Shown here piece by piece: positions 21,452-30,529 of a stretch of 37,331 nt of DNA. The translations under genes were made by a program, and so were the position numbers. Within the stretch, counting starts at the first letter, position 1. Every line of letters starts with the position of its first letter. The stretch comes from a virus (taxonomy: Duplodnaviria > Heunggongvirae > Uroviricota > Caudoviricetes), in the IMG/VR virus record IMGVR_UViG_2537561506_000022, positions 1 through 37,331 of that record. The stretch is one strand, 5' to 3'. The notes below the pieces were generated by a model. That model saw nothing but the letters and a program-made list of their open reading frames with translations. It was not told the origin of the DNA and made no database searches.

Positions 21452-21528
21452 GTGGCATTAGCTCAGTTGGACAGAGCAACCGCCTTCTAAGCGGTTGGTC
21501 GCAGGTTCGAATCCTGCATGCCACGCCA
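21452..21528 (+). tRNA. tRNA-Arg (anticodon UCU), phage-borne
   Basis: 77-nt cloverleaf read by eye: acceptor GTGGCAT/ATGCCAC, D-arm AGCTC...GAGC, anticodon stem ACCGC/GCGGT with loop CTTCTAA, T-arm GCAGGTTCGAATCCTGC, discriminator G and encoded CCA. Confidence 0.9.
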
Positions 21529-27773: not shown

Positions 27774-28118
27774 TCAGAACTCTTCGATGTTCCAGCCACC
27801 ACCTGCTTTCTTTGGTTTAACCGTTACCCCGATGATTCGGAACGGATACTGATCTGCGGCGACTTTGGTTTTCACCCTGGCGTCGTCGGTCCAGAAACCT
27901 TTCACTTCGTGCAGTTCCATCTCTCCGGTGGCGAGCATCACAGCGAAATCGGGCGTATAAAACGTGTTGTCAGCCAGCCGCAGCTTGATACCCTCGAACC
28001 GATACCAGGCGACTTCCCCTGCACGTTTACGCTGCTCAAGGTGCTGGCAATACGCAGATTCTGTTTTGTTCATCTGGCCTGTTTTGAGTCGACCAAGAGC
28101 CTGTATCTGTTTTCTCAT
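27774..28118 (-). CDS. DUF1064-like protein (PD-(D/E)XK-like small nuclease fold)
   Basis: 114 aa with D...EVK motif; the RBS GAGGT is formed by palindrome site e. Confidence 0.55.
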   Translation of the reverse strand: MRKQIQALGRLKTGQMNKTESAYCQHLEQRKRAGEVAWYRFEGIKLRLADNTFYTPDFAVMLATGEMELHEVKGFWTDDARVKTKVAADQYPFRIIGVTVKPKKAGGGWNIEEF

Positions 28119-28121
28119 GAT

Positions 28122-28136
28122 TTACCTCTAAGGTAA
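28122..28136. promoter_or_regulatory. Palindrome site e TTACC-TCTAA-GGTAA, overlapping the RBS of ORF 27774..28118
   Basis: Perfect copy; followed by an AACCACATA block. Confidence 0.4.
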
Positions 28137-28183
28137 TTAAAAACCACATAAGACACGAAATCAATAGATCTAAGAATATTTTG

Positions 28184-28198
28184 TTACCTATTAGGTAA
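28184..28198. promoter_or_regulatory. Palindrome site f TTACC-TATTA-GGTAA
   Basis: Perfect copy 62 bp (centre to centre) from site e. Confidence 0.4.
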
Positions 28199-28235
28199 CT
28201 ATTGAGGCGTAAAAAAATGCGCTATCGCGCTGGTA

Positions 28236-29021
28236 TTACTTGATAAATCCTGCTGCCTTTCCCCGCCTGTATTCCTCCATGAGCCACTGCGCCGGTGTTA
28301 TTCCCCCAAGGGTGGCGGCGTTAGGCATGCACCCGAAACTTCGCCCTGGTGGATGGTAGACGTCTCTCCCTGTGTCCGGAGGTGTACTCATGGGCTCTGG
28401 CTTTGCCTGTATGCTGATCACCGGATCGGGTATCTGCTGTCCGGAAGCCACCTTTTTCGCCCAATCATCGAGCAGCCTGCGCGCGTGTTTCTCAACCTCA
28501 ATCTCGCTAAGCTGGCGCTGATACATTGCACGGCGGGTATCACATACGACCCAGTACATAACCGGATGCCGCCACGGGAATCTTTCGGGACCACCAGGAT
28601 ATAAACTTTTTTCCTTGCTGTACCGGTGAAACTCCGCCATCACATCGTCAATGGTGACGCCAAGAACCATCTTGCTGTCTTTACACCACTTGATGAATTG
28701 CCCTGGCGACGGCCAGAACGGAGATTCACTGGCGCGGGCGTGGCGCATACCAGCAGAAACCTGTTCACGGGTTCGGATCCCCCCTTCGGCAAACGCAGCA
28801 ATCCACTGCTGTTTTGCAGCAACTTCCTGCTCTGGCGTCTTCAGGTTGGTTACCACTGCCGCCGGAAACAGTTGTTTCAACTGTTTGAAAAGGGCATCAA
28901 CAAGCCTCTCTGCTGACATGTTCACCACGTTGTCATTGTTGGTGTACTGATGCTCATAACCTGACATGCGAGAAAGGGCTTCTCCGTCACGGTTTTGTAT
29001 TGCGGTAAAAACGTTGTTCAC
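28236..29021 (-). CDS. Replication protein P-like (helicase loader)
   Basis: GTG start with GGAGGA 6 nt upstream, overlapping the O-like stop (GTGA); contains the FWPSPGQFI motif; track ORF starts at 29036. Confidence 0.65.
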   Translation of the reverse strand: MNNVFTAIQNRDGEALSRMSGYEHQYTNNDNVVNMSAERLVDALFKQLKQLFPAAVVTNLKTPEQEVAAKQQWIAAFAEGGIRTREQVSAGMRHARASESPFWPSPGQFIKWCKDSKMVLGVTIDDVMAEFHRYSKEKSLYPGGPERFPWRHPVMYWVVCDTRRAMYQRQLSEIEVEKHARRLLDDWAKKVASGQQIPDPVISIQAKPEPMSTPPDTGRDVYHPPGRSFGCMPNAATLGGITPAQWLMEEYRRGKAAGFIK

Positions 29022-29833
29022 AAGAAATCCTCCCATGCTTCAGGGCTGTTCCAGTGCGGAACGTTGTTATCAGGTAATGTTGATTGCTTCTGTCTGCTAA
29101 TCTGCAGCCTCCTTGACAGCTTCTGCTCCCACTGTGCCTGATGGTATGCCTTACCCTCAGCCATCCAGTAAATTCTGAACTCTGCAAGTTCCTGTGCCGT
29201 TGGCAGACTGTCCAGGTAGATCCCCTGCAATGAGCTTTTCCGAAGAAAGTCATCTGATGGTTTCCATTGTTCATGCATTACAAATTTGCCTAATTGCCCT
29301 AGCCCACCAGGAGGAACAAAGTTATTCATCACGGCGTTGTTTGCGCCGGGGTCATGAGGCACAGAATCCCCGGTTTTTGTCCTGCTCTCCCTCTCTTGGT
29401 TAAATGACTGGTTATATGACTGGTTCTGGATCCCGTTTTTGGGATCATTCAACATCCCGTTTTTGGGATCATTCAACATCCCGTTTTTGGGTATATTCCC
29501 GTTTTCGGGTATATTCCCGTTTTCGGGTTCATTCCCCCCTTCCCGGTTGCCTTTAATGTTCCCGTTTTTGGTTATATTAAGAGAGAAAACCCGCACTCTT
29601 TTCGTCGCTCCCTTTCTCTCTCCGGTATCTGAAATAAGCCCCATTTTCATGAGCGATATAAGCCCGGCCTGCACGGTTTTTTTATTCAGGCAAGTGTCTT
29701 TAACGAGTCGTTCTATGCTGGGGTAGCAGAGGTTATATTCATCGGCTCTGTCAGCCATCGAGAGCAGTATGAGCTTTAATGATGAGCTGCCTGGATCTGT
29801 CTCCCAGGCCCAATCTGTTGCATGTCTGCTCAT
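29018..29833 (-). CDS. Replication initiator (lambda O-like) with internal peptide repeats
   Basis: 271 aa; central ENGNIPENGNIPKNGMLNDPKNGMLNDPKNG repeats are encoded by the DNA iterons; immediately followed by the P-like gene. Confidence 0.65.
   Translation of the reverse strand: MSRHATDWAWETDPGSSSLKLILLSMADRADEYNLCYPSIERLVKDTCLNKKTVQAGLISLMKMGLISDTGERKGATKRVRVFSLNITKNGNIKGNREGGNEPENGNIPENGNIPKNGMLNDPKNGMLNDPKNGIQNQSYNQSFNQERESRTKTGDSVPHDPGANNAVMNNFVPPGGLGQLGKFVMHEQWKPSDDFLRKSSLQGIYLDSLPTAQELAEFRIYWMAEGKAYHQAQWEQKLSRRLQISRQKQSTLPDNNVPHWNSPEAWEDFL
29431..29577. repeat. Iterons (candidate replication origin) inside the O-like gene
   Basis: Tandem units: two of 24 bp (tcccgtttttgggatcattcaaca), three of 18 bp (tcccgttttYgggtWYat), and two more degenerate copies. 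Confidence 0.65.
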
Positions 29834-29848
29834 GATTAATCTCCGCTA

Positions 29849-30049
29849 TCAGCTTGAATGTTGTGGGGTGGAATTAATCATGATCTGCTTAATCTCTGCC
29901 CTGATGCGACGGTTTGATTCCATGGTGCACTCAACACAGTGTCCGTTGTAAACCCAGCGTTCACTGTCATGTCCGTGCTTACATGGTTTTCCGGTGTAGT
30001 AGCGTTTAAGTCCGCGCTTTGCGGCATCAATACGTGTAATGATTTCCAT
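29849..30049 (-). CDS. Small zinc-binding protein (C-x-H...H-C-x2-C)
   Basis: Likely starts MEIITRIDAAKRG (track ORF 29849..30112 has a hydrophobic, implausible extension); sits at the lambda cII-equivalent position. Confidence 0.4.
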   Translation of the reverse strand: MEIITRIDAAKRGLKRYYTGKPCKHGHDSERWVYNGHCVECTMESNRRIRAEIKQIMINSTPQHSS

Positions 30050-30110: not shown

Positions 30111-30128
30111 AACCAAATTTGGTTTTTT
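30111..30128. terminator. Bidirectional hairpin AACCAAA/TTTGGTT flanked by A8 and T6 runs
   Basis: 14-bp perfect palindrome at 30111..30124 with poly-A before and poly-T after; lies just after the Cro-like gene in its reading direction (tR1-like position). Confidence 0.45.
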
Positions 30129-30129
30129 A

Positions 30130-30144
30130 TTACCTTTGAGGTGA
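30130..30144. promoter_or_regulatory. Palindrome site g TTACC-TTTGA-GGTGA
   Basis: Family member immediately beside the bidirectional hairpin. Confidence 0.35.
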
Positions 30145-30199
30145 GAATAGATATGAAAAGACCGCCGGATGACGGTCTACAGAGGGTTGTGGCTGGATA

Positions 30200-30430
30200 T
30201 CATGAGTAGAAGAAGTATGCCAGTTCTGCTTTTGAGCGCAGCCATTGTCTTGTTTTACAGGCTTTAAAAAGCCCATTCATCAATACCTTACCTGGCATTT
30301 TGCGCTTACCTGTTAAGTGAGTCTGGATATAGTGACTCGTCGTTCCGGCTTCCTGTGCGAAGGCTTCACGCTCATCCGGAGTAAGTGCAAGCCAGTGCTT
30401 TTTGAAATCGAAATGTCCGTTATCGCTCAT
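30200..30430 (-). CDS. Cro-like / YdaS-like small HTH protein
   Basis: 76 aa, divergent from the repressor gene across an operator-rich 154-bp region; HTH-like EAGTTSHYIQTHLTGKRKMP. Confidence 0.5.
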   Translation of the reverse strand: MSDNGHFDFKKHWLALTPDEREAFAQEAGTTSHYIQTHLTGKRKMPGKVLMNGLFKACKTRQWLRSKAELAYFFYS

Positions 30431-30466
30431 AGCTATTGCCTGATATTTATTTCAGATAATAAATAT

Positions 30467-30529
30467 TCACCCATAAGGTAACAAAAATCAAGGATAGTTA
30501 CCTATGGGGTGCATTTACCTGTTGGGTAA
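30467..30529. promoter_or_regulatory. Three operators in the cro/repressor divergent region (h TCACC-CATAA-GGTAA; i TTACC-TATGG-GGTGC; j TTACC-TGTTG-GGTAA)
   Basis: Three 15-bp palindrome-family sites at 30467..30481, 30498..30512 and 30515..30529; a separate 9-bp AT-rich inverted repeat lies at 30443..30466. Confidence 0.5.

What the first reader, a model, noticed from the sequence alone, without database searches (positions are those of the whole stretch)
29431..29577. Iteron array inside the O-like replication initiator gene
Seven related tandem repeats (two of 24 bp, three of 18 bp, two more degenerate) share a CCCGTTTT(T/C)GGG core and encode the peptide repeats ENGNIP/KNGMLNDP in the initiator itself. 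This is the lambda arrangement of an origin embedded in its initiator gene, and marks the likely replication origin.
Basis: partly seen in the sequence, partly recalled or inferred. Interest (0 to 1): 0.4.

Follow-up and report, generated by a model that had tools for sequence, protein, structure and literature searches.

The report
Replication origin inside phage initiator gene
A cluster of six short repeated DNA sites inside the replication-initiator gene of a phiV10-like E. coli phage is almost certainly that phage's replication origin, built on the well-known phage lambda plan, so it is a sound but ordinary finding.

Summary
The repeats are real. Six copies of CCC(A/G)AAAACGGG (at most 1 mismatch) lie at 29430-29574, and nowhere else in the 37 kb (0.3 expected).

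They sit in the linker of a 271-aa minus-strand gene (29018-29833). The protein has an N-terminal HTH_36 domain and a C-terminal DnaT-like domain. A lambda-P-type helicase loader gene follows.

The protein is not a Pfam lambda-O member, but the arrangement matches lambda's. Evidence from 28 distant homologues that share the N-domain:
- All 28 have 3-9 repeats at the same place in the gene.
- In 17 genes the copies lie in different reading frames.
- Synonymous codons are invariant (Pro CCC 18/18).
- The sites are 5-6-5 palindromes whose arms co-vary.
- Relatives with other N-domains lack the array.
- Phage GF-2 joins this N-domain-plus-repeat module to lambda O's C-terminal domain.

So selection acts on the DNA, as expected for sites bound by initiator dimers.

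A second conserved element lies just downstream at 29390-29428: 2-3 tandem 12/13-mers (AACCAGTCAT). It takes the place of lambda's AT-rich region. There is no strongly AT-rich tract.

Verdict: a new member of a known kind. Origin function is inferred, not shown.

The parts
29018..29833 (-). Replication initiator gene, 271 aa. It has an N-terminal HTH_36 winged-helix domain, a repeat-encoding linker and a C-terminal DnaT-like domain.
   Evidence: ORF listed. Pfam HTH_36 at aa 18-67 (2.2e-10) and DnaT at aa 184-252 (9e-15). PHROG 1032 'replication initiation protein' 5.9e-107. PDB DnaT C-domains 6aep and 9zbt, E about 1e-19.
29573..29833 (-). Coding region of the N-terminal DNA-binding domain (aa 1-87), the part that travels together with the repeats across phages.
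   Evidence: tblastn and alignments. The recognition helix and wing co-vary with iteron type.
29559..29574 (-). Iteron 1, promoter-proximal. Gene-sense sequence TAACCAAAAACGGGAA, 1 mismatch in the core.
29532..29558 (-). It is probably a spacer, not a functional site.
   Evidence: No core match. It is the most polymorphic stretch among 55 equal-length arrays.
29514..29529 (-). Iteron 2. Gene-sense sequence AACCCGAAAACGGGAA.
29496..29511 (-). Iteron 3. Gene-sense sequence TACCCGAAAACGGGAA.
29478..29493 (-). Iteron 4. Gene-sense sequence TACCCAAAAACGGGAT.
   Evidence: Invariant in 55 equal-length arrays.
29454..29469 (-). Iteron 5. Gene-sense sequence ATCCCAAAAACGGGAT, a perfect 5-6-5 palindrome.
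29430..29445 (-). Iteron 6, promoter-distal. Gene-sense sequence ATCCCAAAAACGGGAT, a perfect 5-6-5 palindrome.
29390..29428 (-). Second conserved element: CAG + AACCAGTCATAT + AACCAGTCATTT + AACCAAGAGAGG (tandem 12-mers). It is the candidate unwinding element and occupies the position of lambda's AT-rich region.
   Evidence: TRF. Conserved directly after the last iteron in about 20 of 28 distant homologues, partly in other reading frames. Ser TCA 11/11 and Gln CAG 14/14. Among the 4-6% least stable 30-nt windows. The GF-2/lambda junction lies right after it.
29372..29401 (-). Purine-rich tract on the sense strand (AACCAAGAGAGGGAGAGCAGGACAAAAACC). It is a weak counterpart of the A-rich tracts that follow the 12-mers in many homologues.
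   Evidence: Sequence. Homologues.
29042..29293 (-). Coding region of the DnaT-like C-terminal domain (aa 181-264).
28236..29036 (-). Lambda-P-type helicase loader gene. It overlaps the end of the initiator gene.
   Evidence: Pfam Phage_lambda_P 1.5e-56.
30456..30484 (-). pR-like early promoter candidate. Its transcript would run through the origin.
   Evidence: Consensus scan, (9 of 12 matches; weak evidence).

Best explanation
The array is the replication origin of a phiV10-type (Uetakevirus) temperate phage, embedded in the linker of its own initiator gene.

Proposed mechanism:
1. Each 16-bp site is a 5-6-5 palindrome (ATCCC-AAAAAC-GGGAT) with an A-tract centre. A dimer of the initiator's N-terminal winged-helix domain binds each site.
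2. Four to nine bound dimers form an O-some-like complex that bends the DNA.
3. The strain is passed to the adjoining promoter-distal element at 29390-29428, made of tandem AACCAGTCAT 12-mers that are moderately AT-rich. This element opens.
4. The C-terminal DnaT-like domain (ssDNA-binding in DnaT) and the downstream P-type loader bring in host DnaB.
5. Transcription from the early promoter crosses the site, as in lambda.

Shown here: the repeats, their position, the domain identities, DNA-level selection, palindrome covariation, and the tie between the array and the N-domain.

Inferred: protein binding, unwinding at the 12-mers, and helicase recruitment.
For: - Six core copies, all in the array, against 0.3 expected.
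- The array lies between HTH_36 (aa 18-67) and the DnaT domain (aa 184-252), and a P loader gene is next.
- All 28 full-length homologues from E. coli, Edwardsiella, Vibrio, Pseudoalteromonas, Proteus, Acinetobacter, Desulfovibrio, Sphingobium and other hosts have 3-9 copies at the same place, against 1-2 in shuffles or random DNA.
- In 17 genes the copies are in two or more reading frames, with 17-nt spacings.
- Synonymous positions are fixed across loci that are only 46-87% identical in the N-domain: Pro CCC 18/18 (background 0.14) and Asn AAC 13/13.
- The repeated 16-mer is a perfect 5-6-5 inverted repeat in 12 of 28 genes (background 0.0008 per position). Six different arm pairs occur: ATCCC/GGGAT, GTACC/GGTAC, CCCCC/GGGGG, GACCC/GGGTC, GTCGG/CCGAC and GTGCC/GGCAC.
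- The three loci whose arms are not of the CC/GG type have a changed recognition helix and wing.
- Tyrion and SPN1S have the same DnaT C-domain but other N-domains, and they have no in-gene array.
- The GF-2 initiator is 52% identical to this protein over aa 1-128 and 62% identical to lambda O 156-299 over aa 137-280. The junction lies right after the 12-mers, where lambda's AT-rich region ends.
- Among 78 near-identical loci the copy number varies from 4 to 9, always in multiples of 3 nt. The copies nearest the 12-mers, and the 12-mers themselves, do not vary.
- An 8,461-bp circular E. coli plasmid carries only repressor, cro, YdaT, a homologous initiator with iterons, and P as replication-related genes.
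- Brezellec 2017 (PMC5509034) reports that chromosomally domesticated HTH_36+DnaT_C genes (dopC) have no iterons.
Against: - There is no experimental test of binding or origin activity for this phage or for any homologue that I could find.
- No lambda-grade AT-rich tract is present. The 12-mer region is about 35-42% GC and is only among the 4-6% least stable 30-nt windows. The least stable spot in the gene (29551-29580) is at the other end of the array.
- The protein shows no significant sequence similarity to lambda O.
- The loci are related to each other, so the codon and palindrome statistics are indicative rather than exact.
- The small plasmid could be an assembly product.
Confidence: 0.85

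Rival explanations
1. The repeats are only a slippage-prone, low-complexity peptide linker (ENGNIP/KNGMLNDP). Any selection acts on the protein, and the DNA has no function of its own.
For: - Copy number is highly polymorphic and always in frame.
- The region lies between two folded domains.
- The peptide motifs PKNG and QNQS recur in homologues.
Against: - The same DNA motif is read in two or three frames within 17 genes. For example, in GF-2 and PPompW the first copy reads TQKRD/E and the later ones read PK(N/I)G.
- Synonymous codons are invariant across distant loci.
- The dyad symmetry with co-varying arms has no explanation at the peptide level.
- Domesticated dopC genes lack iterons (PMC5509034).
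Confidence: 0.04
2. The sites are bound by the initiator, but they serve mainly for control: autoregulation or a roadblock for P expression, copy control by handcuffing, or titration of an incoming phage's initiator. Strand opening and the true origin lie elsewhere.
For: - Iterons have such control roles in plasmids.
- Lambda origin fragments on plasmids inhibit rep-lambda phages (PMC3349717, listed).
- The flanking DNA is not strongly AT-rich.
Against: - No other repeat array or comparable candidate exists in the 37 kb.
- The 12-mer element is conserved at the DNA level directly next to the last iteron.
- In GF-2 the module replaces exactly lambda's iterons plus AT-rich region.
- An 8.5-kb circle holds little else that could serve as an origin.
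Confidence: 0.08
3. The palindromes act as RNA hairpins in the early transcript, affecting mRNA stability, translation or termination.
For: - The sense RNA of 29390-29585 folds better than shuffles (z = -3.6).
- The pattern scan lists two 'terminator-like' sites at 29440-29483, but on the plus (antisense) strand.
Against: - The stems are only 4-5 bp. The low z-score follows trivially from the DNA palindromes.
- There is no Rfam match.
- The terminator-like hits are on the non-transcribed strand.
- The conservation pattern (A-tract spacer, dimer-type symmetry, tie to a DNA-binding domain) fits a protein-binding site.
Confidence: 0.02

Closest known systems
Phage lambda origin (ori-lambda) in gene O, with P as the DnaB loader. 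This includes the 6-iteron origins of Stx phages 933W and P27.
   Same: - Direct repeats with internal dyad symmetry and an A-tract centre (lambda: ATCCCTCAAAACGAGGGA; here: ATCCCAAAAACGGGAT).
- They lie in the linker of the initiator gene, between the DNA-binding and C-terminal domains.
- An easily opened element lies on the promoter-distal side.
- A P-type loader gene follows.
- The site is about 1 kb downstream of the early promoter.
- Iteron number varies and changes the protein length, as with lambda's 4 against 6 in Stx phages (PMC7466680).
   Different: - The initiator has no Phage_rep_O or TIGR01610 match, and hhalign is not significant.
- The C-terminal domain is DnaT-like, not lambda-O-C.
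- The site is 16 bp (5-6-5), against 18 bp in lambda.
- Spacings are 18/24, against 20-24.
- Tandem 12-mers at about 35-42% GC stand where lambda has a 20%-GC AT-rich tract.
DopC/DopE, chromosomally domesticated O-like and P-like genes of Cellvibrionales and Oceanospirillales (Brezellec et al. 2017, PMC5509034).
   Same: The same two-gene architecture: HTH_36 + DnaT_C protein followed by a P-family protein.
   Different: dopC is resident in the chromosome and is reported to have no iterons. The gene here is in a phage and carries the array, so it represents the phage progenitor type.
Iteron plasmid origins with repeated 13-mers in the unwinding element (RK2 oriV/TrfA, and oriC 13-mers).
   Same: Initiator-binding direct repeats lie next to short tandem 12/13-mers that could be bound as single strands (PMC4081077, listed; the comparison rests on my own knowledge).
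   Different: - Those origins lie outside the rep gene.
- They use Rep_3-type WH1-WH2 initiators and DnaA boxes.
- No DnaA box or IHF site is present here.
Other origins embedded in phage initiator genes (P22 gene 18, SPP1 oriL in gene 38).
   Same: The general plan of initiator-binding repeats inside the initiator's own coding sequence (from my own knowledge, not tested here).
   Different: These are different protein families. P22 and SPP1 were not recovered by tblastn with this protein.

Membership tests
Lambda-type origin (ori inside the initiator gene) | At least 3-4 direct repeats with internal dyad symmetry inside the initiator ORF | tested here: met
   Six copies, two of them perfect 5-6-5 palindromes.
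Lambda-type origin (ori inside the initiator gene) | Repeats lie in the linker between the DNA-binding and C-terminal domains | tested here: met
   The array encodes aa 86-135. HTH_36 covers aa 18-67 and DnaT covers aa 184-252.
Lambda-type origin (ori inside the initiator gene) | AT-rich unwinding region on the promoter-distal side of the iterons | tested here: inconclusive
   The 12-mer element is about 35-42% GC and among the 4-6% least stable 30-nt windows, against 20% GC in lambda. It is conserved and corresponds in position to lambda's AT-rich region.
Lambda-type origin (ori inside the initiator gene) | P-family helicase loader encoded directly downstream | tested here: met
   PF06992, E 1.5e-56, at 28236-29036.
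Lambda-type origin (ori inside the initiator gene) | The initiator binds the repeats and the fragment supports replication | not testable with these tools
   This needs EMSA or footprinting and a mini-replicon assay.
Lambda O protein family (Phage_rep_O, PF04492 / TIGR01610) | Significant match to the O N-terminal domain model | tested here: not met
   No Pfam or NCBIfam hit, whereas lambda O scores 132.6 bits on TIGR01610. BLASTP E 0.07. hhalign probability 3%. Brezellec 2017 reports by HHpred that lambda O's N-terminus is HTH_36-like.
DnaT primosomal protein (NF002770) | Full-length equivalog score | tested here: not met
   81.5 bits against a cut-off of 201. Only aa 181-264 align, to the DnaT C-domain.
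DopC (domesticated O-like gene) | HTH_36 + DnaT_C architecture with a P-like neighbour | tested here: met
DopC (domesticated O-like gene) | Resident chromosomal context, no prophage, no iterons | tested here: not met
   The window is 96-98% identical to phiV10-type phages and carries iterons.
Iteron plasmid replicon (Rep_3 type) | Rep_3 initiator, iterons outside the gene, DnaA boxes | tested here: not met
   No Rep_3 hit. The iterons are in the gene. There is no DnaA box in 29000-29900 apart from one 1-mismatch site at 29014.

The most novel reading that the evidence does not exclude
Initiators carrying this HTH_36 N-domain define a widespread phage origin class, found in phages and prophages of Gamma-, Beta- and Alphaproteobacteria and of Desulfovibrio. 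In this class the unwinding element is not a generic AT-rich tract. It is a sequence-specific set of 2-3 tandem 12/13-mers (consensus GAACCAGTCAT) kept directly after the last iteron. The element would be recognised, probably as single-stranded DNA, by the initiator or by a conserved host factor. The whole unit of N-domain, iterons and 12-mers moves between replication systems and combines with DnaT-like, lambda-O-like and other C-terminal domains, and with either P-type loaders or DnaB-type helicases.
Probability: 0.35. Interest if true: 0.5.

Novelty: new member of a known kind. Interest (0 to 1): 0.3.

Why it matters
- It places the likely origin of phiV10-type phages. These are used as E. 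coli O157 reporter phages and are present as prophages in about 8% of complete E. coli genomes. The position can now be tested to within about 200 bp. The RefSeq phiV10 record carries no origin feature in this stretch.
- It explains why these initiator proteins fall into many length variants, and why one assembly has a gap inside the array.
- It gives a clean comparative example of a protein-coding stretch whose sequence is dictated by a DNA-binding site.
- The conserved 12/13-mers offer a testable candidate for a sequence-specific unwinding element in a phage origin.
- The principle itself, an origin inside the initiator gene, is textbook.

Tried and rejected
- AlphaFold2 on the single sequence gave a mean pLDDT of 36.8 and is unusable. 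No deeper alignment could be submitted, because the homologue search returned only near-identical length variants.
- hhalign of the N-domain alignment against lambda O gave probability 3%, so homology can be neither shown nor excluded.
It was repeated with 3 sequences.
- The viral-contig scan returned only relatives 99-100% identical in the N-domain. These were useful for copy-number polymorphism but not for divergence.
- Literature searches for phiV10 or epsilon15 origins, for the motif strings and for HTH_36 found no description of this origin.
- The Rfam search found no relevant family.
- The RNA folding z-score of -3.6 is judged a trivial result of the DNA palindromes.
- No DnaA boxes or IHF sites lie in the array.
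- The GATC cluster (3 in 39 nt) is not exceptional for this window.
- GC skew and simple GC profiles are uninformative at this scale.
- The '+'-strand ORFs across the array (29404-29556 and 29439-29726) are treated as antisense artefacts of the repeats.

Full report
**1. The observation**

The repeats are present at the stated place.
- Tandem Repeats Finder reports a 24-nt unit x2.6 (100% matches) at 29430-29491 and an 18-nt unit x3.2 (92%) at 29479-29536.
- The repeat finder puts six copies in register, starting at 29430, 29454, 29478, 29496, 29514 and 29559.
- The core, written on the coding (minus) strand as CCCRAAAACGGG with at most one mismatch, occurs six times in the 37,331-nt window. 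All six are in the array. Dinucleotide-preserving shuffles give 0.30 on average and never reach six.
- The array lies in a minus-strand ORF, 29018-29833 (271 aa), whose translation contains EPENGNIPENGNIPKNGMLNDPKNGMLNDPKNG.
It is also the most point-polymorphic stretch among closely related arrays. I count six sites.

**2. The gene and its setting**

- The window is a phiV10-type (Uetakevirus) phage or prophage. The replication region is 96-98% identical to phiV10, EC.W1-9, PAS61 and others. It occurs in 424 of 5,426 complete E. coli genomes. The structural half is 97.8% identical to phage TL-2011b.
- The protein has Pfam HTH_36 at aa 18-67 and the DnaT DNA-binding domain at aa 184-252. The latter aligns with solved DnaT C-domains at E about 1e-19.
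- It is not a member of the lambda O family. There is no Phage_rep_O or TIGR01610 match, while lambda O itself scores 132.6 bits on TIGR01610. BLASTP and hhalign against lambda O are not significant.
- Brezellec et al. 2017 (PMC5509034) describe exactly this architecture, HTH_36 + DnaT_C followed by a P-family protein, as O-like/P-like. By HHpred they assign HTH_36 to lambda O's N-terminus as well.
- The next gene (28236-29036) is a lambda P-family loader (E 1.5e-56).
- Upstream lie a cro-like gene, a terminator-like site, a promoter-like site and a divergent repressor gene, which is a lambdoid early-right layout.
- The array encodes aa 86-135, in the linker between the two domains.

**3. Is selection on the DNA or on the peptide?**

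This question separates an origin from a mere peptide repeat.

I collected homologues that share the N-terminal domain. Some came from annotated phages: Edwardsiella GF-2, Vibrio Her, Acinetobacter Ab105-2phi and AP22, and enterobacterial PPompW. Others came from one genome per species, 27 loci that are 46-87% identical in the N-domain. These included Vibrio, Pseudoalteromonas, Proteus, Providencia, Acinetobacter, Desulfovibrio, Sphingobium and Methylotenera.

- **Presence.** All 28 full-length genes carry 3-9 copies of a 14-nt motif at the same place, about 260-530 nt from the start. Shuffled linkers and random 420-nt pieces of the window give 1-2, and once 3.
- **Reading frames.** In 17 of the 28 genes the copies lie in two or three different reading frames, because some spacings are 17 nt. 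In GF-2 and PPompW, for example, the first copy reads T-Q-K-R-D/E and the later copies read P-K-(N/I)-G.
- **Synonymous sites.** Across distant loci the Pro codon in the site is CCC in 18/18 (background 0.14). Asn is AAC in 13/13. The loci are related, so the P-values are only indicative.
- **Palindromes.** The repeated 16-mer is a 5-6-5 inverted repeat with an A/T-rich spacer. It is perfect in 12 of 28 genes and 4/5 in most of the others, against a background of 0.0008 per position.
- **Arm covariation.** The two arms change together: ATCCC/GGGAT here, and elsewhere GTACC/GGTAC, CCCCC/GGGGG, GACCC/GGGTC, GTCGG/CCGAC and GTGCC/GGCAC. That is the signature of a site bound by a protein dimer.
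- **Protein covariation.** The three loci whose arms are not of the CC/GG type also have a changed recognition helix (NKKT becomes HRDT, YRET or NRHT) and lack the DTGERKG wing.
- **Negative controls.** Tyrion and SPN1S are Uetakeviruses with the same DnaT-like C-domain but unrelated N-domains. They have no in-gene array. The domesticated chromosomal dopC genes are reported to have no iterons.

It is therefore passed in the informative sense: the repeats follow the DNA-binding domain.

**4. Equivalence with lambda**

- The lambda record annotates four 18-bp iterons (ATCCCTCAAAACGAGGGA and variants) at 39034-39118 inside O, followed by an A-rich tract with 20% GC.
- The sites here (ATCCCAAAAACGGGAT) have the same outer arms and A-tract centre, but they are 16 bp long.
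- The GF-2 initiator is a natural chimera. Its aa 1-128 are 52% identical to this protein (E 2e-37) and include iterons and 12-mers. Its aa 137-280 are 62% identical to lambda O 156-299 (E 2e-67). A P gene follows.
- The junction falls right after the 12-mers in GF-2 and right after the AT-rich region in lambda. So the unit 'N-domain + iterons + 12-mers' replaces lambda's 'N-domain + iterons + AT-rich region'.
- The same unit is also joined to other C-terminal domains. In Acinetobacter phages it is followed by a DnaB-type helicase gene instead of P.

**5. A second element**

- Directly after the last iteron the window reads CAG AACCAGTCATAT AACCAGTCATTT AACCAAGAGAGG (29428 down to 29390). phiV10 has one more 12-mer.
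- About 20 of the 28 homologues have CAGAAYCnnTCA at exactly this position, followed by one or two further copies 11-13 nt apart, and often by an A-rich tract.
- In Her the second copy is 13 nt on, so it is read in another frame (NQSL, then EPVI). In L109 and L111 the whole element is in another frame.
- Ser is TCA in 11/11 (background 0.25) and Gln is CAG in 14/14.
- In this window the element is only moderately unstable: about 35-42% GC, among the 4-6% least stable 30-nt windows. The least stable spot in the gene (29551-29580, top 2%) is at the other end of the array.
- I read the 12-mers as the counterpart of an unwinding element with repeated 13-mers, as in oriC or RK2 oriV. That is an inference.
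- No DnaA box or IHF site is present.

**6. Population data**

- Among 78 loci whose N-domain is 99-100% identical there are 43 array variants. The length between fixed anchors is 171-267 nt and is always a multiple of three. There are 4-9 core copies (mode 6).
- Point differences are confined to the promoter-proximal copies and the 'degenerate' stretch. The copies next to the 12-mers, and the 12-mers themselves, are invariant.
- This fits lambda, where the iterons nearest the AT-rich region suffice in vitro (PMC7466680).
- The protein database holds many length variants, 271-311 aa. One phage assembly has an N-gap inside the array.

**7. Circumstantial support for autonomous replication**

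- An 8,461-bp circular E. coli plasmid record carries a repressor, cro, YdaT, a homologous initiator (98% identical to PPompW's, with four iterons in two frames) and P. It has cargo genes but no other listed replication gene. That resembles a lambda-dv. It could also be an assembly product.
- Two 41,027-bp circular 'plasmid' records carry the identical N-domain and are probably the whole phage as a circle.

**8. Rivals**

- A pure peptide repeat is excluded by the frame, codon and palindrome data.
- An RNA role is unlikely. The stems are 4-5 bp, there is no Rfam family, and the folding z-score of -3.6 follows from the palindromes.
- A control-only role, with the origin elsewhere, cannot be excluded without experiments. 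It is disfavoured by the adjacent conserved element, by the GF-2 junction, and by the absence of any other candidate in the window.

**9. Verdict**

The array is very probably the phage's origin, built on the lambda plan by an initiator of a different family. Origin activity, binding and the role of the 12-mers remain inferred. This is a new member of a known kind, and I found no published description of it. The interest is modest, and lies in the family-wide covariation and the conserved 12/13-mers.

Noticed in passing
window 29390-29428: Tandem 12-mers (AACCAGTCATAT / AACCAGTCATTT / AACCAAG...) lie directly after the last iteron. They are conserved at the DNA level in about 20 of 28 distant homologues, partly in other reading frames. 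phiV10 has three full copies.
   Followed up: yes
L004 (Edwardsiella phage GF-2) 1501-2343: The initiator is a chimera. Its N-domain, iterons and 12-mers resemble this window (52% identity). Its C-terminal half resembles lambda O 156-299 (62% identity). The junction lies where lambda's AT-rich region ends.
   Followed up: yes
window 30124-30144, 30306-30320, 30465-30527: Operator-like palindromic sites (TCACCCATAAGGTAA / TTACCTATGGGGTG) lie between the repressor gene and the cro-like gene. Two further copies lie downstream, so the set may be split into two operator groups.
   Followed up: no
window 30159-30178 (minus strand): An intrinsic-terminator-like hairpin lies between the cro-like gene and the 87-aa ORF, in a tR1-like position. 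It is also annotated in phiV10. Reaching the origin and the replication genes may therefore need read-through or antitermination.
   Followed up: no
window 1-25000 versus 28000-30000: The structural genes are 97.8% identical to phage TL-2011b, but TL-2011b's initiator shares only the DnaT-like C-domain (44% identity). The replication module has been exchanged as a unit within Uetakeviruses; Tyrion and SPN1S also differ.
   Followed up: partly
L119 (NZ_CP148379.1, whole 8,461-bp circular plasmid): This small circular E. coli plasmid consists of repressor, cro, YdaT, an HTH_36/DnaT-type initiator with iterons, P, and cargo genes (HokD, Rem, HNH endonuclease and others). It is a possible natural lambda-dv-like replicon, or an assembly artefact.
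   Followed up: partly
NZ_CP079771.1 / NZ_CP079768.1 (41,027-bp circular records): Duck E. coli 'plasmids' of phage-genome size carry an identical initiator N-domain. They are probably this phage type recovered as an extrachromosomal circle.
   Followed up: no
L002 (PP488543.1, phage BP9, 133-137 kb); PP350014.1 (PH444); L003 (KP869107.1): A 138-kb Vequintavirus record and a 115-kb record carry this phiV10-type immunity and replication module near a record end, so both are probably chimeric assemblies. The O157 typing phage 9 record has a run of N inside the iteron array and a truncated 'dnaT' CDS.
   Followed up: no
window 29429, 29443, 29467: Three GATC (Dam) sites within 39 nt overlap the arms of the last iterons. 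The density equals, but does not exceed, the maximum seen elsewhere in the window.
   Followed up: partly
window 21452-21528: A tRNA-Arg (anticodon tct) gene lies inside the phage genome.
   Followed up: no
window 29404-29556 and 29439-29726 (plus strand): Antisense ORFs of 50 and 95 aa run across the array with repetitive translations. They are by-products of the repeats, not genes.
   Followed up: no
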